Of a stretch of DNA of 64,000 bases, positions 42,761-50,460 are shown in pieces. Under the pieces are notes generated by a model, which saw nothing but the letters and a program-made list of their open reading frames with translations, had not been told where the DNA came from and made no database searches. Both the position numbers and the translations under genes were made by a program. The stretch comes from a bacterium ADurb.Bin243 (lineage in GTDB: Bacteria; Muiribacteriota; UBA9980): contig MWBZ01000012.1 of the NCBI GenBank assembly GCA_002069765.1, forward strand, positions 8,436 to 72,435, read 5' to 3'. Numbering within the stretch: position 1 is the first letter of the stretch; the number at the start of each line of letters is the position of its first letter.

Positions 42761-43249
42761 CTATTTTTCTATTTCTTTAATGGCGACGTTGAGGTTAAGG
42801 CTGCCGTACTGCGTCTGAAAAGGAATTAAAATAGCCGGAATGTCCGATTCCGGTATCTGTATTTCACGGCCTACGAAAAGAGTGGGCGGCGAAAAGTCAA
42901 CGCTGTAGCCGGAGCTGACGAGTATTGAAATAGCCCTTCCGGTGACCATATTAGTCATTTCGGCCAGAGCCGAACGGGCGAGCGAACTCAATTCTTCTTC
43001 GACGGGTTCGAAAAGCATTTTACTGGCCACTTCGCACGCAAGCTTGCTTTCGAGCGAGTAAATAACCCTGCCTTTAACGTTGCCGACGACCCCCAGAATT
43101 ATCACGGCCAGTTTTTCTTTTGAAGCGACTGACTCTTTTGCCAGCGAAAGCCCGGTACGGGTGAAAGTTATGCCTGCGACTATCTGCGGCAATATTTGAG
43201 CGGCCGCCTCTATAAAAGGATTAATAAGTTCCTTTTTGATTTTAAACAC
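42761..43249 (-). CDS. cheX: CheX/CheC-like chemotaxis phosphatase
   Basis: 162 aa; CheX-like fold signature (AEMTNMVTGRA) and size; directly downstream of a CheY-like receiver gene. Confidence 0.55.
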   Translation of the reverse strand: MFKIKKELINPFIEAAAQILPQIVAGITFTRTGLSLAKESVASKEKLAVIILGVVGNVKGRVIYSLESKLACEVASKMLFEPVEEELSSLARSALAEMTNMVTGRAISILVSSGYSVDFSPPTLFVGREIQIPESDIPAILIPFQTQYGSLNLNVAIKEIEK

Positions 43250-43307
43250 CCCAATGTCTGTAGAACATAATATAAAACGCGGTTCCGGTTAATAAAATAA
43301 ACCGGTC

Positions 43308-43682
43308 CTACATTTTAAGAACTTTGTCGATAGTGGCTATAAGGTTATCTTCGGTAAACGGTTTGACTATAAAATGCTTCGCGCCGAGCGTGAGCGCTTC
43401 TATTACTTTATCTTTCTGGGAAGCGGCCGAAACCATTATAACTCTGGCCTGCGGGTTTATCTGTTTTATCTGCTTAAGGCCTTCTATGCCTGATTCCCCG
43501 GGCATGGTTATGTCCATGGTGACCAGATCGGGAGTTTCCGCCTGATAAACTTTCAAAGCGTTTTCGACATTTTCGGCCTCGACTATATTGTCGAAACCGA
43601 ACTTCGCGAGAATTTTTTTGATGGTATACCGCATAAACTGCGCGTCATCAACAATAAGTATTTTTTCGGCTCTTTCACCCAT
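43308..43682 (-). CDS. cheY: Single-domain response regulator (CheY-like receiver)
   Basis: 124 aa; receiver signature residues are present, including the conserved lysine (KPF) near the C-terminus. Confidence 0.85.
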   Translation of the reverse strand: MGERAEKILIVDDAQFMRYTIKKILAKFGFDNIVEAENVENALKVYQAETPDLVTMDITMPGESGIEGLKQIKQINPQARVIMVSAASQKDKVIEALTLGAKHFIVKPFTEDNLIATIDKVLKM

Positions 43683-43739
43683 CGATTTTCTCCTTGCGTT
43701 TTTTGCGTTTCAGGTAAGTTTTGAGTTTTTCACTTAATA

Positions 43740-43768
43740 TTTTTACCACAATATAATTACATTGTCAA
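43740..43768 (-). promoter_or_regulatory. Putative sigma70-type promoter (TTGACA-N17-TAAAAA on the minus strand) upstream of cheY-cheX
   Basis: Reverse complement of 43763-43768 is TTGACA; a 17-nt spacer precedes TAAAAA at 43745-43740. Confidence 0.35.
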
Positions 43769-43814
43769 CAAATAAATTTAAAAATTTTACTTTTTTTGTC
43801 TTTAATTAAAACCG

Positions 43815-44516
43815 CTATACGCCTTTTTTATCGGCGGGCCAGATATACTTGTGCATTTGAAGCTGAAATCTAGCTTTAACACCGTCTTGCAGCATCCATT
43901 TTATTATTTTTTCCGGACGAATTTTTCCGTACACGGCCGAAAACAAAACGCCGCACTTTTCGGCTAGGCTATATTCAAATATAATATTTTTGCAATATTC
44001 GTAATCGGCCCGGTCGCCTATAACGAACTTTATTTCATCGACGGATTTTAAATGATTGAAGTTGTCGAAAATCATCATACCGCTGCTGCCCGAAGAAGGA
44101 GTTTTGACGTCCATTATTATTACCGCCTGATCGTTTAATCCTTTTATGGAAATCGAACCAGAAGTTTCGATCAGCAGGCGCGGCTCTATGGCATCAGCCC
44201 GGCGGCCCTTTTTCTTATTATTCAAATACTCCACCAGCAGGTCAACCAGCTGCGGCGCGCCTTTTTGCATAAGCGGCTCGCCTCCGGTGAGTTCGATGAT
44301 GTGCGGGTCGAGAGCGTCTACTTTAGATATTATTTCTCCGGCGGTAAGGTATCTGCCGTACTTATACGCATAAACCGTGTCGCAATAAGCGCAGCGAAGA
44401 TTGCAGCCGCTGAGGCGCACGAACGCGCATGCGAGCCCGGCGTAAGAAGACTCGCCCTGAACGCTTTTAAATATTTCATTGACCTTGAATTTTAAAATCG
44501 AAGAATCGTTCGGCAT
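43815..44516 (-). CDS. queE: 7-carboxy-7-deazaguanine synthase QueE (radical SAM)
   Basis: Motif CNLRCAYCDT plus the QueE-type GGEPL motif; start chosen at ATG 44516 (the ORF track extends to a TTG at 44537). Confidence 0.85.
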   Translation of the reverse strand: MPNDSSILKFKVNEIFKSVQGESSYAGLACAFVRLSGCNLRCAYCDTVYAYKYGRYLTAGEIISKVDALDPHIIELTGGEPLMQKGAPQLVDLLVEYLNNKKKGRRADAIEPRLLIETSGSISIKGLNDQAVIIMDVKTPSSGSSGMMIFDNFNHLKSVDEIKFVIGDRADYEYCKNIIFEYSLAEKCGVLFSAVYGKIRPEKIIKWMLQDGVKARFQLQMHKYIWPADKKGV

Positions 44517-44525
44517 AACAAAAAT

Positions 44526-44555
44526 ATTATAACACAACGAACGTTTTATTTACAA
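44526..44555 (-). promoter_or_regulatory. Putative promoter TTGTAA-N18-TATAAT (minus strand) ending 9 nt before the queE ATG
   Basis: Reverse complement of 44550-44555 is TTGTAA and of 44526-44531 is TATAAT; there is no Shine-Dalgarno sequence between the -10 element and the ATG. Confidence 0.35.
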
Positions 44556-44740: not shown

Positions 44741-47700
44741 ATGGACATTTTCGAATCCCTGAATCCGATGCAGTACGAGGCGGCAACCCTCACAGACGGC
44801 CCCCTTATAATATTCGCAGGGGCCGGCACTGGCAAAACCAAGGTCATCACGCACCGAATAGCTTATCTCATAAAGAAAAAAAACGTAAATCCTAAAAATA
44901 TACTCGCGATAACCTTTACCAACAAAGCCGCCGACGAAATGCGCACACGCGTGGACGCGCTGCTGCCGGGTAACGGCCGCGACGTATGGGTTTCGACGTT
45001 TCATAAAATATGCCTTTTCATATTGAGAAATCACGCCGAATCGCTGGGCCTGACCAAAAACTTCATCATTTACGACGACGGCGACCAGAACGCTCTTATA
45101 AAAGAATGCCTTAAAGAGCTCGACGTAAACGAAGACAATATCAAACCCAGGATGATACTTTCCAAAATATCTCTCGCCAAGTCCAATATGATTTCAGAAG
45201 ACGACTATCTTCTGAACGAAAGCTCGCACATAGACAGCATTATAGAAAAGATTTACAAACTCTACAATAAAAAGCTCAGGCAGAACAACGCGGTCGATTT
45301 CGACGACATTATTTTCCTTACCGCCAGCCTTCTTAAAAACAACGACTCCGTCTTAAAGACATATTCCACACGCTTCAAATACATACTTGTCGACGAATAC
45401 CAGGACATAAATTATTCACAGTATATGTTCGTCAAAACGCTTTCCAATATACACAAAAATATCTGCGTCGTCGGCGACGACGACCAGTGCGTATGCGCCA
45501 ACTCGCAGGTCCTCACGCCTAACGGCTACCAGAAAATAGAAAACATTATGGAAGGAAGCCAGATAGTTTCGTGTATCGGCCACGACGGCGTAAGCATAGC
45601 GCAGACCAGCAAGGTAATGCGCAGGCCTTATTCCGGGCAGGCCATAAAGATCACTCTCGAAAACCAGAAAACGCTCACCGTAACGCCGAACCACCTCCTT
45701 TTCGCAAAATACAATTCTTCGGCTTCGTTGAGTTACGTTTACATGATGTACCGTAAAGCTTTCGGTTATAAAATAGGCGTTTGTCAGGGGCTTTCGTTGT
45801 TCACCGAGTCGCGCAAGTACGATCTCGAAGAAGGCGATAAAATATGGATACTTAAAATCTGCAAAAACCCAAAAGACGCTTCGTACTTCGAATCGCTTTA
45901 TTCCACCAGGTACGGCATACCCACCCTTCACTTCACGGCCCGCTCTCTGGGAGCCACTTTAGAACAGGATAAAATCAAAAAAATATATTCCGAAGTCGAT
46001 ACTTTTGTTAGGGCCGAAGTTTTAATGCGCGATCTCATGATATACGAGGAGCATCCGCACTACGTTTCGGTCGTAAAGACCCGCTCGCTTTCTTCTCCAA
46101 AAGTTTTAAGCCTCACCATGTTCGGCGCGAACGAACGCTCGCGTGAAAACGGCTGGTACTTCCACCGCATGAACCTCGACATCAACGCCCAGAACATCGG
46201 CGTTCTGCGCGGCGACACGTCGGTGATCAAAAAAACCGGCTCGCTCGACAAATGGAAAGTGGAAGCCGTGCGCGAAGATTATTCGGAGCTCGTCAGTTTC
46301 GCTAAAACAATATCCGGGCTCGACGAGCTTCTGCTGGTCGAAAAGGCTCAGCTCACTTCAAAAGCGCCTTTCTACCAGATGCCGGCGTCGCACGTCCACG
46401 AAAATATGACGCTCGCCTTCTTCAACCATAAAGAAAAAAAGATCGAAGAGCTGCTGGTGTCCGAAATCGAAGTCATCGATTACGAAGGCTTCGTTTACGA
46501 CCTTTCGGTAAATCATCTTCATAATTTTATAGTGGACGGCTTCGTCGTCCATAATTCCATATATTCCTGGCGCGGCGCCGACGTGCGTTCGATGCTGAAT
46601 TTCGAGCGCGACTATCCCAATTCGCAGGTGGTAAAGCTCGAGCAGAATTACCGTTCCACCAAAAACATACTTCTGGCTGCTTCCGAAGTGATAAAAAACA
46701 ACGTCACCAGGCGTGAAAAAACGCTTTGGACGCAGGGCGAATCGGGCGAAAAAATAACCGTCTACGAAGCCATCAACGAACAGGCTGAAGTGGTTTTCGC
46801 CATTAACCAGATGCGCCAGGTTATTTACCGCGAAGATAAAAAATATTCGGATTTCGCGTTTTTCTACCGCACCAACGCCCAGTCGCGCGTAATCGAAGAA
46901 ACGCTTATAAAAGAAGGGATCCCATACAAGATGGTGGGCGCCATCCGCTTCTATCAGCGCAAGGAAATCAAGGACGTAATCGCCTATCTCAGGCTCATAT
47001 TAAACACCAGCGACAATCTCAGCCTTCTTCGCATCCTCAACGTGCCGCGCCGCGGCATAGGCGAAAAATCAATAAGCTCTCTGGTGGCCTTCGCCAACGA
47101 AAAGAAAATATCCATTTTCGACGCTCTGGCCAAAGTGGCCGAAATCGAAGACCTCCCCTTGAAGGCCAAAAACACCACGCTGAACTTCGTAGATCTCATA
47201 AACGAGCTGCGCGCCGATTGCGCGAAACTCAACGTCACCGAGCTTACTAAAAACGTTCTGGACAAAACGGGTTATTTAAGGGAACTAAAGGTTATAAATT
47301 CGTCGCAGACGCTCGACCGCTCCAAGAACATCAACGAGCTGCTCAGCGTCACCGAAGCCTACGATCAGGAAAAATCGGGCGGAGGATTGTCCGGTTTCCT
47401 CGAAAGGGTCACGCTTATAAGCGACCTCGACGAAATCGACGAAAAGCAAAATTCCGTTACCCTCATGACATTCCATGCGGCAAAAGGCCTCGAATTTCCG
47501 GTCGTATTCATGCTCGGCATGGAAGAAAAGCTCTTTCCGCACGAACACTCCAGCGACGAAAATTACGACATAGCCGAAGAAAGAAGGCTTTGCTACGTGG
47601 GCATGACGAGGGCCCGCGAAAGGCTTTACATCATACATACCAGGCAGCGAAGAATATTCGGTTCGGTTTTCACCAATCCAGTTTCACGCTTCGTCAGCGA

Positions 47701-48082
47701 AATACCGGATTCTCTCGTTATAAATATTTCCTGCGAAGAGGAATTTCTCAACAGCGTCCCTCAGATGACCCGCAAAGTTTTCCGCGACAGCGCGCCGCGC
47801 CGCATCGACGACGACGACGACGGTTACGGCTCGCGCGATTTGAGCACCGGCGCCGTGCATAAGCCGCATTCGGCGGCGTCAGAAGATGAACCGGGCGAAA
47901 ACCTCGCAGAGTTCGGCGGCGTCACTTTCGCCAAAAGCGACAGGGTAAAGCATTCGATGTGGGGAATCGGCGTCGTGCTCGAAGCCACGGGTCGCGGCGA
48001 CGAATGCCTCGTAAAAGTCAATTTTATGAACGTGGGCGAAAAGAAGCTGCTGCTCAAATATGCGCCGCTCGACAAAATATAA
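44741..48082 (+). CDS. pcrA: ATP-dependent DNA helicase PcrA/UvrD carrying an in-frame intein in helicase motif III
   Basis: Walker A AGAGTGKT, motif Ia, DEYQD, and motif III split as VVGDDDQ / (intein) / SIYSWRGAD; C-terminal UvrD domains. The 1113-aa length compares with about 750 aa for intein-free homologs. Confidence 0.9.
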   Translation: MDIFESLNPMQYEAATLTDGPLIIFAGAGTGKTKVITHRIAYLIKKKNVNPKNILAITFTNKAADEMRTRVDALLPGNGRDVWVSTFHKICLFILRNHAESLGLTKNFIIYDDGDQNALIKECLKELDVNEDNIKPRMILSKISLAKSNMISEDDYLLNESSHIDSIIEKIYKLYNKKLRQNNAVDFDDIIFLTASLLKNNDSVLKTYSTRFKYILVDEYQDINYSQYMFVKTLSNIHKNICVVGDDDQCVCANSQVLTPNGYQKIENIMEGSQIVSCIGHDGVSIAQTSKVMRRPYSGQAIKITLENQKTLTVTPNHLLFAKYNSSASLSYVYMMYRKAFGYKIGVCQGLSLFTESRKYDLEEGDKIWILKICKNPKDASYFESLYSTRYGIPTLHFTARSLGATLEQDKIKKIYSEVDTFVRAEVLMRDLMIYEEHPHYVSVVKTRSLSSPKVLSLTMFGANERSRENGWYFHRMNLDINAQNIGVLRGDTSVIKKTGSLDKWKVEAVREDYSELVSFAKTISGLDELLLVEKAQLTSKAPFYQMPASHVHENMTLAFFNHKEKKIEELLVSEIEVIDYEGFVYDLSVNHLHNFIVDGFVVHNSIYSWRGADVRSMLNFERDYPNSQVVKLEQNYRSTKNILLAASEVIKNNVTRREKTLWTQGESGEKITVYEAINEQAEVVFAINQMRQVIYREDKKYSDFAFFYRTNAQSRVIEETLIKEGIPYKMVGAIRFYQRKEIKDVIAYLRLILNTSDNLSLLRILNVPRRGIGEKSISSLVAFANEKKISIFDALAKVAEIEDLPLKAKNTTLNFVDLINELRADCAKLNVTELTKNVLDKTGYLRELKVINSSQTLDRSKNINELLSVTEAYDQEKSGGGLSGFLERVTLISDLDEIDEKQNSVTLMTFHAAKGLEFPVVFMLGMEEKLFPHEHSSDENYDIAEERRLCYVGMTRARERLYIIHTRQRRIFGSVFTNPVSRFVSEIPDSLVINISCEEEFLNSVPQMTRKVFRDSAPRRIDDDDDGYGSRDLSTGAVHKPHSAASEDEPGENLAEFGGVTFAKSDRVKHSMWGIGVVLEATGRGDECLVKVNFMNVGEKKLLLKYAPLDKI
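45488..46555 (+). mobile_element. Intein (356 aa, Hint domain blocks A, B, F, G) inserted between Q249 and S of helicase motif III
   Basis: Begins CVCANSQVLTPNG (block A), has TLTVTPNHLLF (block B, T-x-x-H), and ends GFVYDLSVNHLHNFIVDGFVVHN followed by +1 Ser. The central about 200 aa contains no clear LAGLIDADG or HNH motif. Confidence 0.85.
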
Positions 48083-48165: not shown

Positions 48166-50460
48166 ATGGAATATATACAGCTCGAAGAAAAAGTAAAAAG
48201 TTACAACCCTAACGCCAATTTTGAATATTTGAAAAAAGCCTACGATTTTGCCCGCGAAGCGCATAAGACGCAGTTCCGGGCGAGCGGCGAACCTTACTTT
48301 ATACATCCTTTCAACGTAGCCATGATTCTGGCCGATTTGAAGCTCGACGTCATATCCATAGCCGCGGGGCTCCTTCACGACGTAGTCGAGGACACGCCCG
48401 CCACCAGCGAGATAATAACGGCCGAATTCGGTTCTACCATGGGGCTTTTAATCGACGGCGTAACGAAGCTTTCAAAGCTTTCTTTCAAATCCAAGGAAGA
48501 ATTCGCCGCCGAAAACCTCCGTAAGATGTTGTTCGCGCTTATAAAAGACATCCGCGTTATACTCGTCAAGCTGGCGGACCGCCTCAACAATATAAGGACA
48601 CTGGGCTCGCTGGCTCCCGAAAAGCAAAAGCGCATCGCGCGCGAAACGCTCGATATTTACGCCCCTCTGGCTAACCGTCTCGGAATGCACAGCATAAAAA
48701 TAGAGCTGGAAGATTCCTGTTTCAGAATATGCGAACCTGAAATCGCGGCGGAGCTCGAAACCAAGCTTTTCAAAGACAAACTGCAAACCGACAAATACAT
48801 AGAAGACATTATAACCACTCTCAAGCAGGAATGCGCGGAAAACAACATACCATGCGAAATTTTCGGTCGCCAGAAGCACCTTTACAGCATTTATAAAAAG
48901 ATCAACAACAAAGATAAAACCATAGACGACATCTATGATTTAATAGGGCTTCGGGCCATAGTAAACTCTATCAACGACTGCTACGCCGTGCTCGGGCTGG
49001 TTCACAAGCTCTGGAAACCGATCATGGGCCGCTTTAAAGATTATATCGCCGTGCCGAAAACCAACCTTTATCAGTCTCTTCACACCACCATAGTCCACGG
49101 CGGCGGCGAGCCCGTAGAAATCCAGATACGCACCCAGCTCATGCACAGAATCGCCGAAGAAGGCATCGCGGCCCACTGGAACTATAAGGAAAGCGGCTCG
49201 AAAAAGGCCGCCGAGGGCCAGAAAAACGATATGGCATGGCTCCGCCAGATAATAAACTGGCACCGCGACGTAACCGACGCCCGCGAATATATCGAAACCA
49301 TAAAAGTAGACCTCTACCAGGACGAAGTTTTCGTATTCACGCCCAACGGAGATATCAAAGTCCTCACTTCTAAAAGCACGCCCCTTGATTTCGCGTACCT
49401 CATCCACTCCGAAGTCGGCAATAAATGCGTAGGAGCGAAGGTCAACGGCAAGATGGTCACGCTCGACTACGAACTCAAAAACGGCGACATCATAGACATT
49501 TTAACTTCCAACAGCGCCAGGCCTTCCAAAGACTGGCTGAAAATAGTCAAATCGCCTCACGCCCGCACCAAAATTAAAGCGTGGTTCAAAAACGAGGAAC
49601 GCGAAAACGACCTGAAAAAAGGGCGCGACAATTTCACCGAATATTACGCGGGCCATATAAAAGACGTAATCAAGTTTTACGAGGAACACAATAAAACGCC
49701 TTTCCTGCATGAAAAGCAAAGCTTCTCCAGGGACGATTTCGATTTGAACAAAGTGATGAAGTCGCGCCTCTTTCTCGACGCGCTTTCGGCGCTCAACTTC
49801 AAGGCCATAGACGATTTCTTCGTCATCATAGGCCGCGGCGAGTATCAGATCCGCAATATATTCGCGAAAATGTTTCCCGAATTTATAGAATCCGTTATGA
49901 ACAAAGGCAAGCCCATGCACGTTCTTCAGCAGAAAAAGGCGCCCGAAAAAAAATCGCGCTCGGTCAACGGCGTCATAGTTTCGGGCCTCGACGACGTGCT
50001 GGTGCGCTTTTCCAAATGCTGCACGCCGGTGCCCGGCGATCCGATAATAGGCTTCATAACGCGCGGCCGCGGAGTGTCCGTCCACCGCAAGAACTGCCCC
50101 AATATTTCGATCGACCAGGCCGAAAAGGACCGCATCATCGAAGTCAGCTGGGACCAGAGCCGCCTTCTTTCCCATAATATAGCCTACGCTACAAGAATAA
50201 GAGTGAAAGCCATAGAGCGTCCCAACCTTCTTCTCAACGTGACCAACCTTATATCCAACTTAAAGCTCAATATTTACGAGCTTCACGCGCGAATCGAAAA
50301 GAACTTCGCGATAGTCGAGTTCACGGTGGATATAATAAATATCCAGCAGCTCGACGAATTCATCAAAAATATCGAAAAAATCGACGGCGTAATGAACGTT
50401 TACCGCACCGAAGGCTCCAGTTCGCCTTCTTCGGGACAGCCGCCGGCGCATAAAAAATAA
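48166..50460 (+). CDS. relA: Bifunctional (p)ppGpp synthetase/hydrolase RelA/SpoT
   Basis: 764 aa; HD hydrolase domain (HDVVED), synthetase domain (RAIVN...DYIA), TGS and C-terminal ACT-like domain. Confidence 0.9.
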   Translation: MEYIQLEEKVKSYNPNANFEYLKKAYDFAREAHKTQFRASGEPYFIHPFNVAMILADLKLDVISIAAGLLHDVVEDTPATSEIITAEFGSTMGLLIDGVTKLSKLSFKSKEEFAAENLRKMLFALIKDIRVILVKLADRLNNIRTLGSLAPEKQKRIARETLDIYAPLANRLGMHSIKIELEDSCFRICEPEIAAELETKLFKDKLQTDKYIEDIITTLKQECAENNIPCEIFGRQKHLYSIYKKINNKDKTIDDIYDLIGLRAIVNSINDCYAVLGLVHKLWKPIMGRFKDYIAVPKTNLYQSLHTTIVHGGGEPVEIQIRTQLMHRIAEEGIAAHWNYKESGSKKAAEGQKNDMAWLRQIINWHRDVTDAREYIETIKVDLYQDEVFVFTPNGDIKVLTSKSTPLDFAYLIHSEVGNKCVGAKVNGKMVTLDYELKNGDIIDILTSNSARPSKDWLKIVKSPHARTKIKAWFKNEERENDLKKGRDNFTEYYAGHIKDVIKFYEEHNKTPFLHEKQSFSRDDFDLNKVMKSRLFLDALSALNFKAIDDFFVIIGRGEYQIRNIFAKMFPEFIESVMNKGKPMHVLQQKKAPEKKSRSVNGVIVSGLDDVLVRFSKCCTPVPGDPIIGFITRGRGVSVHRKNCPNISIDQAEKDRIIEVSWDQSRLLSHNIAYATRIRVKAIERPNLLLNVTNLISNLKLNIYELHARIEKNFAIVEFTVDIINIQQLDEFIKNIEKIDGVMNVYRTEGSSSPSSGQPPAHKK

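What the first reader, a model, noticed from the sequence alone, without database searches (positions are those of the whole stretch)
45488..46555. Intein interrupting motif III of the PcrA/UvrD helicase
The helicase ORF is 1113 aa, against about 750 aa for intein-free homologs. The conserved motif III sequence GDDDQSIYxWRGA is split into VVGDDDQ, then 356 aa, then SIYSWRGAD. The insert starts with Cys (CVCANSQVLTPNG), has a block B T-x-x-H (TLTVTPNHLLF) and ends ...DGFVVHN followed by Ser. This gives a complete set of Hint splicing residues at a catalytically essential host site. The central roughly 200 aa lack obvious LAGLIDADG or HNH motifs, so it may carry a degenerate or novel homing endonuclease or linker.
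Basis: seen in the sequence. Interest (0 to 1): 0.7.

Follow-up and report, generated by a model that had tools for sequence, protein, structure and literature searches.

The report
Intein splitting PcrA helicase motif III
A self-splicing protein insert (intein) really does interrupt an essential motif of the PcrA DNA helicase in this Candidatus Wallbacteria genome. The intein is an ordinary kind of element, but instead of a usual homing endonuclease its middle holds a conserved, undescribed two-lobed domain that may derive from a GIY-YIG nuclease.

Summary
A 356-aa insert (nt 45488-46555) lies between Q and S of SF1 helicase motif III (VVGDDDQ | C…HN | SIYSWRGA) in a 1113-aa PcrA. It has all class-1 splicing residues, significant intein profile hits and a confident Hint-fold model.

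It is one member of a large family. A search with the central domain found 525 representative clusters. Of 100 top hits with a complete N-junction, 95 sit at this same motif III site of UvrD/PcrA/Rep helicases. One is an intein already annotated in E. coli phage PaulScherrer.

Every sampled Wallbacteria PcrA carries the intein. It diverges in step with its host and has host-like GC, so it looks fixed and vertically inherited.

The central 217 aa are neither linker nor decay (dN/dS 0.03-0.04; pLDDT 81). They are not LAGLIDADG or HNH. The first lobe resembles the GIY-YIG nuclease fold, but every test is below significance. The second is an α/β lobe. Wallbacteria have lost a family-conserved Arg and a 7-aa loop, so cleavage may be lost.

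Free-standing, splicing-dead copies of the whole intein exist. In Riflebacteria they lie directly upstream of an intein-free pcrA.

Verdict: a real intein, and a new variant of a known kind.

The parts
44741..48082 (+). pcrA precursor ORF: 1113 aa including the intein, 126.9 kDa
   Evidence: One search lists the ORF. TIGR01073 pcrA scores 865 bits in two pieces that flank the insert. Pfam finds UvrD-helicase, UvrD_C and the PcrA_UvrD_tudor domain.
44741..45487 (+). N-extein, residues 1-249, ending in the first half of motif III (VVGDDDQ)
45488..46555 (+). Intein, 356 aa, 40.6 kDa, class 1: Cys1 … His355-Asn356
   Evidence: Whole-intein model has pLDDT 85.7 and pTM 0.84.
45488..45712 (+). N-terminal half of the Hint splicing domain (intein aa 1-75), with block A Cys1 (45488-45490) and block B T66-x-x-H69 (45683-45694)
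   Evidence: TIGR01445 covers aa 1-72. C1 and H69 are invariant in 29 family members. pLDDT is 91-98.
45725..46045 (+). Central domain, lobe 1 (intein aa 80-186): β-β-short α-β-α, then two helices. Tentatively GIY-YIG-like. Keeps Y85, G93, G97, E114, D117, W120, E135, Y142-G143-P145. Carries K95, S103 and K110 where the family has Arg.
46055..46060 (+). Pro190-His191, a nearly invariant pair in the loop between the two lobes (EHPHY)
   Evidence: P190 is present in 83 of 84 and H191 in 82 of 84 family members outside Wallbacteria. P190 and H191 are invariant in alignment A1. Role unknown.
46073..46357 (+). Central domain, lobe 2 (intein aa 196-290): β-β-β-β-α-β. Possibly binds nucleic acid.
   Evidence: Model. 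The family consensus gives a sub-threshold match to the PheRS B5 domain (E 6e-4, 20 bits, cut-off 28.6). dN/dS is 0.043.
46364..46555 (+). C-terminal half of the Hint domain (intein aa 293-356), with block F (VYD338LSVNHLH345NF) and block G (FVVH355N356, 46550-46555)
   Evidence: TIGR01443. Matches to the Pho RadA and MJ0781 inteins. D338, H355 and N356 are invariant.
46556..48082 (+). C-extein, starting with the +1 nucleophile Ser (46556-46558) and the second half of motif III (SIYSWRGA)

Best explanation
This is a full-length class-1 intein translated inside PcrA, between the Gln and the Ser of SF1 helicase motif III.

Inferred splicing mechanism, from established intein chemistry:
- Cys1 makes the N-S acyl shift, helped by block B Thr66 and His69.
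- Ser+1 attacks the thioester to form the branched intermediate.
- Asn356 cyclises, helped by His355 and block F Asp338 and His345, and releases the 40.6-kDa intein.
- An O-N shift joins the exteins into an 86-kDa PcrA with an intact GDDDQSIYSWRGA.
Until this happens motif III is broken, so the helicase should be inactive.

The element belongs to a large intein family that targets this one site in UvrD/PcrA/Rep helicases of bacteria and phages. All members carry the same ~220-aa two-lobed central domain in place of a LAGLIDADG or HNH endonuclease.

My best reading of that domain is that it is the family's homing nuclease. Lobe 1 would be a divergent GIY-YIG-type catalytic module. Lobe 2 would be a DNA-binding module. 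This matches the modular layout of I-TevI. Confidence is about 0.5 that lobe 1 is GIY-YIG-derived and about 0.6 that the domain is or was a homing nuclease.

In Wallbacteria the intein is fixed and vertically inherited. Lobe 1 has lost the family's conserved Arg103 and most of the helix that follows strand 2, so it probably no longer cuts DNA. The domain is still under strong purifying selection. It therefore still does something, either supporting folding and splicing or acting as a DNA-binding protein after excision.
For: Shown:
- Exact in-frame insertion at a site that is contiguous in 105 of 113 intein-free homologues.
- All splicing residues are present.
- Significant intein profile hits and a confident Hint-fold model.
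- The central-domain search found 525 representative clusters at E<=1e-3.
- Among the best 150 of these, 95 of 100 complete N-junctions read x[DN]xxQ|C, and 111 of 112 complete C-junctions continue motif III.
- Phage PaulScherrer has an annotated intein at VVGDEFQ|C…SHN|CIYQFRGS that matches the window intein at E 2e-24.
- All seven PcrA relatives at 73-95% identity, and nine loci in eight GTDB species genomes, carry the intein.
- Intein identity tracks extein identity. GC is 0.485 for the intein against 0.489 for the extein.
- dN/dS for window vs P0003 is 0.028 for central lobe 1 and 0.043 for lobe 2, against 0.015 for the C-extein.
- The central model has pLDDT 81.

GIY-YIG leads:
- Strand and helix order β-β-α-β-α.
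- PF01541 is the only Pfam hit of the consensus and is colinear over profile positions 2-69 of 78. It is also the commonest weak hit among members.
- hhalign P is 0.003, pairing E135 with I-TevI E75. Controls give P 0.5-0.66.

Loss in Wallbacteria: R103 to S, a 7-aa deletion, R95 to K, R110 to K, N112 to D and Q113 to L.
Against: - Splicing is not demonstrated.
- In the low-confidence extended hhalign alignment the invariant Arg95, not Tyr94, falls on the YIG tyrosine position.
- No nuclease activity is known for any family member.
- E114, D117, E135 and H191 are all kept in the window. If these are the real catalytic residues, the Wallbacteria domain could still be active.
- dS between the compared genes exceeds 1, so the dN/dS values are rough.
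Confidence: 0.85

Rival explanations
1. The central domain is still an active homing endonuclease in Wallbacteria. Purifying selection reflects continuing homing into rare empty pcrA alleles.
For: Purifying selection on both lobes is strong. The acidic and His residues E114, D117, E135 and H191 are retained. The family is scattered across bacterial phyla and phages, which implies mobility somewhere in the family.
Against: No intein-free Wallbacteria pcrA was seen among the best 120 homologues or in the GTDB scan, so there is nothing to home into. Intein and extein divergence go together. Family-conserved Arg103 and a 7-aa loop are lost in the whole clade.
Confidence: 0.2
2. After excision, the intein is a host-useful protein with a role linked to PcrA, for example a nuclease-dead DNA-binding partner. 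The intein form guarantees 1:1 production with PcrA.
For: Free-standing homologues of the whole intein have lost Cys1, and most have lost the terminal His-Asn. They persist in several lineages at 25-41% identity to each other. In two Riflebacteria lineages the gene lies 17 nt upstream of an intein-free pcrA on the same strand. Six of seven group with the Wallbacteria clade in an NJ tree. The intein is fixed and constrained in Wallbacteria.
Against: A free-standing homing endonuclease gene next to its target gene is also a known selfish arrangement. P0126 and P0216 are not next to pcrA. The tree has no support values and long-branch attraction is possible. There is no functional data.
Confidence: 0.25
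3. The central domain is kept only because the Hint domain needs it to fold and splice. It has no activity of its own.
For: PcrA function depends on splicing, so anything needed for splicing inherits the host's constraint. The putative catalytic Arg and the following helix are lost.
Against: Constraint is as strong on surface-rich lobe 2 as on the Hint halves. Mini-inteins show that the Hint fold needs no insert (one search lists solved mini-inteins that match the Hint halves). Free-standing, splicing-dead copies still keep the domain.
Confidence: 0.2
4. The insert is not an intein. It is a lineage-specific helicase domain that stays in the mature protein.
For: The insert is present in every Wallbacteria PcrA.
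Against: A full set of Hint blocks and significant intein profile hits are present. The insertion falls exactly between two invariant motif III residues. The same element, with the same boundaries, occurs in unrelated helicases and phages.
Confidence: 0.02
5. The central domain is a degenerate LAGLIDADG endonuclease.
For: The best Foldseek PDB hits are I-OnuI-type meganucleases.
Confidence: 0.03

Closest known systems
Intein of the UvrD/Rep-family helicase of Escherichia phage PaulScherrer (Bas60, MZ501100, locus bas60_0082) and related Justusliebigvirus and Phapecoctavirus phages
   Same: Same insertion site in motif III (VVGDEFQ|C…SHN|CIYQFRGS). Same length class (347 aa). Homologous over the full length, including the central domain (E 2e-24).
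   Different: Only 25% identical. It sits in a phage helicase rather than the chromosomal PcrA. It has Cys at +1. Its lobe 1 is also divergent. GenBank annotates it only as 'intein', and I found no description of the domain.
UvrD/PcrA inteins catalogued in intein surveys (Novikova et al. 2016, PMC4760082: 16 UvrD inteins in five bacterial phyla; review PMC5874633)
   Same: Same host protein family and the same theme of inteins in ATPase motifs of repair helicases.
   Different: The review places helicase inteins at the P-loop (PMC5874633), whereas this one is in motif III. The surveys' site tables were not available to me. Wallbacteria is not among the listed phyla.
GIY-YIG homing endonucleases (I-TevI; catalytic domain PDB 1LN0) and other GIY-YIG nucleases (UvrC N-domain 1YCZ, Slx1)
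   Same: Order of secondary structure β-β-α-β-α. A Tyr in strand 1, a Gly-ended strand 2, an Arg shortly after strand 2 in most family members, and a Glu in the helix after strand 3. A modular layout of catalytic lobe plus separate binding lobe.
   Different: All similarity scores are sub-threshold. The YIG Tyr position may be occupied by Arg95. The window copy lacks the Arg and most of helix 1. The reviews I read list only LAGLIDADG, HNH, Vsr-like and EndoVII-like endonucleases for inteins, not GIY-YIG (bioRxiv 10.1101/2025.01.02.630785).
Canonical bifunctional inteins with a LAGLIDADG endonuclease (for example PI-SceI, PI-PkoII)
   Same: A Hint domain split by an inserted domain after block B. 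Class-1 chemistry. The C-terminal Hint part matches PI-PkoII.
   Different: The inserted domain has a different fold and no LAGLIDADG motifs.
Yeast HO endonuclease (an intein-derived free-standing protein; from my own knowledge and PMC/bioRxiv text)
   Same: The free-standing relatives of this intein in Riflebacteria and Muiribacteriota are, like HO, whole intein-like proteins that no longer splice.
   Different: They are bacterial and carry a different embedded domain. Several have lost the putative catalytic Glu. Their function is unknown.

Membership tests
Intein (class 1) | In-frame insertion in a conserved host site that is contiguous in intein-free homologues | tested here: met
   VVGDDDQ|…|SIYSWRGA. 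The motif is contiguous in 105 of 113 intein-free PcrA.
Intein (class 1) | Block A N-terminal Cys/Ser and block B TxxH | tested here: met
   Cys1 and T66-P-N-H69. C1 and H69 are invariant in 29 members. TIGR01445 scores 45 bits against a cut-off of 24.5.
Intein (class 1) | Blocks F and G: conserved Asp/His, penultimate His, terminal Asn, and a +1 Cys/Ser/Thr | tested here: met
   D338, H345, H355, N356 and Ser+1. TIGR01443 scores 21.6 bits against a cut-off of 15.6.
Intein (class 1) | Hint fold | tested here: met
   AlphaFold model with pLDDT 91-98 over both Hint halves. The family profile matches solved inteins down to 5e-14. This is a prediction, not a solved structure.
Intein (class 1) | Protein splicing actually occurs | not testable with these tools
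   Needs expression plus western blot or mass spectrometry. Expected sizes are 126.9 kDa going to 86.3 and 40.6 kDa.
UvrD/PcrA/Rep motif III intein family (as in phage PaulScherrer) | Same insertion point, and homology over Hint plus central domain | tested here: met
   95 of 100 N-junctions read x[DN]xxQ|C. blastp to the Bas60 intein covers aa 1-356 at E 2e-24.
LAGLIDADG homing endonuclease | One or two LAGLIDADG helices and the αββαββα fold | tested here: not met
   No Pfam or NCBIfam hit in the window copy or in 48 relatives. Foldseek to I-OnuI gives E 0.05, TM 0.23. The domain starts with a β-hairpin.
HNH homing endonuclease | ββα-metal motif with His-Asn-His | tested here: not met
   No HNH family among the Pfam hits of 29 or 48 members. 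None among the structural hits.
GIY-YIG nuclease superfamily | Three-stranded sheet with β-β-α-β-α order | tested here: inconclusive
GIY-YIG nuclease superfamily | Sequence profile match (PF01541) | tested here: inconclusive
   The family consensus gives E 0.019 and 15.7 bits against a cut-off of 22.6. It is the sole hit and is colinear over positions 2-69 of 78. Three of 48 members hit, best E 0.0087. hhalign gives P 0.003 and probability 10.8%.
GIY-YIG nuclease superfamily | Catalytic Tyr (GIY), Tyr (YIG), Arg in helix 1, and Glu in helix 2 | tested here: not met
   The window copy has Y85, Y94 and E135 but Ser at 103, where 68 of 84 relatives have Arg. Helix 1 is shortened by a 7-aa deletion. 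The wider family meets Tyr, Arg and Glu. The YIG Tyr is Tyr or Phe.
Mini-intein | Hint domain only, about 130-200 aa | tested here: not met
   The intein is 356 aa with a 217-aa folded insert.

The most novel reading that the evidence does not exclude
The ~220-aa central domain defines a previously undescribed class of intein-borne homing module: a GIY-YIG-derived catalytic lobe plus a binding lobe, specialised on motif III of SF1 helicases. In the Wallbacteria, Riflebacteria and Muiribacteriota lineages it has been domesticated. The excised intein would then act as a nuclease-dead protein linked to PcrA. In Riflebacteria the same role would be filled by a splicing-dead free-standing copy encoded immediately upstream of an intein-free pcrA.
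Probability: 0.2. Interest if true: 0.7.

Novelty: new variant of a known kind. Interest (0 to 1): 0.42.

Why it matters
Inteins in repair helicases are well known, so the intein itself is not news.

Three things are worth a specialist's time:
- A large intein family, with hundreds of 50%-identity clusters in bacteria and cultured E. coli, Bacillus and Streptococcus phages, carries a conserved domain that no profile library or solved structure recognises. If it is a nuclease, it adds a new endonuclease type to inteins. Phage PaulScherrer offers a tractable model for testing homing.
- The Wallbacteria copy is fixed, vertically inherited and strongly constrained, yet has lost family-conserved residues. 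That is hard to fit to the simple homing-cycle model of invasion, decay and loss.
- Splicing-dead free-standing copies next to an intein-free pcrA suggest a route from intein to independent gene in bacteria.

The practical consequence for annotation is small. The gene should be called an intein-containing PcrA precursor, not a 'UvrD-helicase domain-containing protein' or '3'-5' exonuclease'.

Tried and rejected
- The word-indexed protein search with the intein found only the sequence itself. With the central-domain profile it found six short fragments. The full HMMER scan was needed to see the family.
- Pfam, NCBIfam, PHROGs and PDB sequence searches of the central domain found nothing significant, either as a single sequence or as a profile.
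- Foldseek against the PDB gave nothing below E 1e-3. The afdb50 library was not available.
- A hidden antisense or out-of-frame endonuclease was rejected. The 171-aa antisense ORF 45416..45931 has no Pfam hit. Antisense and off-frame open stretches are not conserved among five relatives.
- PD-(D/E)xK was considered because of the E114…D117-K118 string. It was rejected because K118 is not conserved and no such fold appeared among the structural hits listed.
- A genome-contig scan with the broad alignment failed for lack of a conserved stretch. The narrower alignment found only Wallbacteria-type genomes.
- The supplement of Novikova et al. with UvrD insertion sites is not held.
- Four literature searches found no paper describing UvrD/PcrA inteins or their central domain.
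- tblastn of the intein against the window found no second copy.
Full report
**1. The observation**

The window has one long ORF at 44741..48082 (+) of 1113 aa. It is PcrA. TIGR01073 scores 865 bits in two pieces, and Pfam finds UvrD-helicase, UvrD_C and the PcrA/UvrD tudor domain.

The string CVCANSQ… begins at residue 250 and …FVVHN ends at residue 605. The flanks are …NICVVGDDDQ and SIYSWRGAD….

Joined, the flanks give a 757-aa protein with the contiguous SF1 motif III GDDDQSIYSWRGA. The same contiguous motif occurs at about residue 244-268 in 105 of the 113 best intein-free PcrA homologues, which are 703-828 aa long.

**2. It is an intein**

The excised 356 aa match three intein profiles above their curated cut-offs:

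| Profile | E-value | Bits | Cut-off |
|---|---|---|---|
| Pfam Intein_splicing | 2.3e-16 | 60.4 | 35.8 |
| TIGR01445 intein_Nterm | 1.3e-11 | 45.4 | 24.5 |
| TIGR01443 intein_Cterm | 1.9e-4 | 21.6 | 15.6 |

- The two ends match solved inteins such as MJ0781, Pho RadA and PI-PkoII. A family profile reaches 5e-14.
- All class-1 residues are present: Cys1, block B T66-x-x-H69, block F D338 and H345, H355-N356, and Ser+1.
- In a 29-member alignment C1, H69, D338, H355 and N356 are invariant.
- An AlphaFold model built on that alignment has mean pLDDT 85.7 and pTM 0.84, with pLDDT above 90 over both Hint halves.

Splicing itself cannot be shown here. It is inferred from intact chemistry and from the fact that motif III would otherwise be broken in the only PcrA seen at this locus.

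**3. Organism and inheritance**

The sequence is from Candidatus Wallbacteria, going by the NCBI names of the identical fragment P0001 and of P0008.

- All seven PcrA proteins that are 73-95% identical over the extein carry the insert at the same place. The next relatives are Bacillota PcrA at 47-49% identity, and none of them has it.
- A scan of one genome per GTDB species found nine loci in eight MAGs with the intein at 63-99% identity. These include Ca. Wallbacteria GWC2_49_35 and UBP16_UBA6123.
- Intein identity falls in step with extein identity. The central domain runs 94, 84, 60, 64 and 67% where the extein runs 94, 88, 80, 80 and 78%.
- The pcrA-relA neighbourhood is conserved.
- Intein GC (0.485) equals extein GC (0.489).

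I found no empty site inside the lineage. The intein therefore looks old, fixed and vertically inherited there.

**4. A large family at one site**

A full HMMER scan of 1.84 billion cluster representatives with the central 230 aa found 525 proteins at E<=1e-3 and 181 at E<=1e-10. Among the best 150:

- Of 100 with a complete N-junction, all start with Cys. 95 follow x[DN]xxQ (motif III) and 4 follow VDEAQDLNK (motif II).
- Of 112 with a complete C-junction, 111 continue [SCA][ILVM][YFHM]x[WFC], the rest of motif III.
- The +1 residue is Ser in 84, Cys in 27 and Ala in 1.
- Intein length is 329-383 aa, median 362.

Named members come from Bacillota, Elusimicrobiota and Desulfosporosinus.

The domain also occurs in 69 phage records from Escherichia, Streptococcus, Bacillus and Campylobacter phages. 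In E. coli phage PaulScherrer (Bas60, MZ501100) the depositors annotated an 'intein-containing UvrD / Rep family helicase precursor'. Its intein lies at VVGDEFQ|C…SHN|CIYQFRGS. The window's intein aligns to it end to end at 25% identity, E 2e-24.

So this intein allele already exists in public annotation, and the intein as such is not new. UvrD inteins are also listed in surveys: 16 in five phyla in PMC4760082. PMC5874633 places helicase inteins at the P-loop. I found no paper that describes the motif III allele or its central domain.

**5. The central domain is not a linker and not decaying**

A model of aa 76-293 built on 48 sequences has pLDDT 81 and pTM 0.71. It shows two lobes:

- Lobe 1, aa 82-185: β-β-short α-β-α, then two helices.
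- Lobe 2, aa 205-287: β-β-β-β-α-β.

For the closest pair with usable dS (window vs P0003), dN/dS is as follows:

| Region | dN/dS |
|---|---|
| Hint N half | 0.081 |
| Central lobe 1 | 0.028 |
| Central lobe 2 | 0.043 |
| Hint C half | 0.018 |
| C-extein | 0.015 |

dS exceeds 1 for this pair, so the values are rough. More distant pairs are saturated.

Family-wide near-invariant residues are Y85, G93, R95, G97, R110, E114, D117, W120, E135, Y142-G143-x-P145, F149 and P190-H191.

**6. What the domain is**

It is not LAGLIDADG or HNH. No such profile hit appears in 48 members. The best Foldseek PDB hits, to I-OnuI, have E 0.05, probability 0.2 and TM 0.23. The domain also begins with a β-hairpin rather than a helix.

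Several weak lines point the same way for lobe 1, towards the GIY-YIG nuclease fold:

- The β-β-α-β-α order fits.
- PF01541 is the commonest weak Pfam hit among members, in 3 of 48, best E 0.0087.
- PF01541 is the only Pfam hit of the family consensus of lobe 1. It gives E 0.019 and 15.7 bits, colinear over profile positions 2-69 of 78.
- I fetched twelve real I-TevI-like catalytic domains from phage genomes. hhalign of lobe 1 against them gives P 0.003 and pairs E135 with I-TevI Glu75. Lobe 2 and the two Hint halves, used as controls, give P 0.5-0.66.
- BFVD gives weak hits to T5orf172, GIY-YIG and intron endonucleases at E 0.04-0.25.

Every one of these is below the usual threshold. The hhalign probability is only 10.8%. 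In the extended low-confidence alignment Arg95, not Tyr94, falls on the YIG tyrosine position. I therefore rate 'GIY-YIG-derived' at about 0.5.

The consensus of lobe 2 gives a sub-threshold match to the PheRS B5 domain at E 6e-4. This is a lead for nucleic-acid binding and no more.

A catalytic lobe followed by a binding lobe is the layout of GIY-YIG homing enzymes. This comparison is from my own knowledge of I-TevI.

**7. The Wallbacteria copy differs from the family**

Where 68 of 84 other members have Arg103, shortly after strand 2, all Wallbacteria copies have Ser. Arg103 is about where Arg27 sits in I-TevI. A 7-aa stretch with a conserved Gly is deleted. In addition R95 becomes K, R110 becomes K, N112 becomes D and Q113 becomes L. 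E114, D117, E135 and H191 are kept.

The nearest outside relative, P0122, shares the Ser and the deletion, and has also lost E114 and W120.

If the GIY-YIG reading is right, the catalytic helix is largely gone and cleavage is probably lost. This is inference. It fits the absence of empty sites to home into. It leaves the strong purifying selection unexplained by homing.

**8. Free-standing relatives**

Seven proteins of 353-377 aa align to the whole intein but are separate genes: P0126, P0139, P0142, P0150, P0213, P0216 and P0243.

- All lack Cys1. Most lack the block B His and the terminal His-Asn. Several lack E135.
- In two Riflebacteria lineages the gene lies 17 nt upstream, on the same strand, of an intein-free pcrA whose motif III is contiguous (VVGDEDQSIYSWRGA).
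- Two others lie elsewhere.
- The best BLAST match of the Muiribacteriota protein P0126 is the window's intein. Six of the seven group with the Wallbacteria clade in an NJ tree. That tree has no support values, and long-branch attraction is possible.

There are two ways to read this. One is a free-standing selfish endonuclease gene parked beside its target. The other is a domesticated intein-derived protein with a PcrA-linked role. The second reading would also explain the constraint on the Wallbacteria domain.

**9. Verdict**

- The intein is an ordinary class-1 intein of a family already present, unremarked, in public phage annotation.
- What is not ordinary is its embedded domain. It is large, conserved, structurally confident, unrecognised by current libraries, and possibly a new intein-borne nuclease type.
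- The lineage history is also unusual: fixation with constraint, and free-standing derivatives.

I score interest at 0.42 and novelty as a new variant of a known kind. The most novel reading not excluded is given separately, with probability 0.2.

Noticed in passing
L018 4001-5101 and 5119-7422; L020 4001-5104 and 5122-7275 (Riflebacteria contigs): Free-standing 366-367 aa genes are homologous to the whole intein but lack Cys1 and the terminal His-Asn. They lie 17 nt upstream, on the same strand, of an intein-free pcrA with a contiguous motif III.
   Followed up: partly
L019 4001-5062 (Ca. Muiribacteriota, P0126); L021 4001-5062 (P0216); L022 577-1665 (P0213): Further free-standing intein-like genes that are not next to pcrA. 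P0126 lies between rpoD/dnaG and dnaE. Its best BLAST match is the window's intein.
   Followed up: partly
Proteins P0197, P0230, P0238, P0246, P0253 (1872-2536 aa; P0230 on a 188-kb contig): Giant proteins carry two or three copies of this intein family in one UvrD-like module. One copy follows motif II (VDEAQDLNK|C) and one follows motif III (GDDKQ|C). They may be of large-phage or giant-virus origin.
   Followed up: no
BFVD hit A0A8S5TZY8 (Myoviridae sp. ctCuC1, 'adenine specific DNA methyltransferase', 782 aa): Foldseek finds the central domain (137 columns, rmsd 2.9 Å, E 5e-6) in a phage protein named as a methyltransferase. This suggests the domain also rides in inteins of other host genes.
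   Followed up: no
window 42761-44537 (-) and 48166-50460 (+): Flanking genes are CheX-like (42761..43249), a CheY-type response regulator (43308..43682), a radical-SAM QueE-like gene (43815..44537) and relA/spoT (48166..50460). The pcrA-relA pairing is conserved in all four Wallbacteria relatives examined.
   Followed up: partly
window 45416-45931 (-): A 171-aa antisense ORF lies inside the intein. It has no Pfam hit and is not conserved in relatives, so it is probably spurious.
   Followed up: yes
NCBI names of P0001, P0008, P0277: Public annotations call fragments of these intein-containing PcrA genes 'UvrD-helicase domain-containing protein, partial' or '3'-5' exonuclease'. The intein is not annotated.
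   Followed up: no
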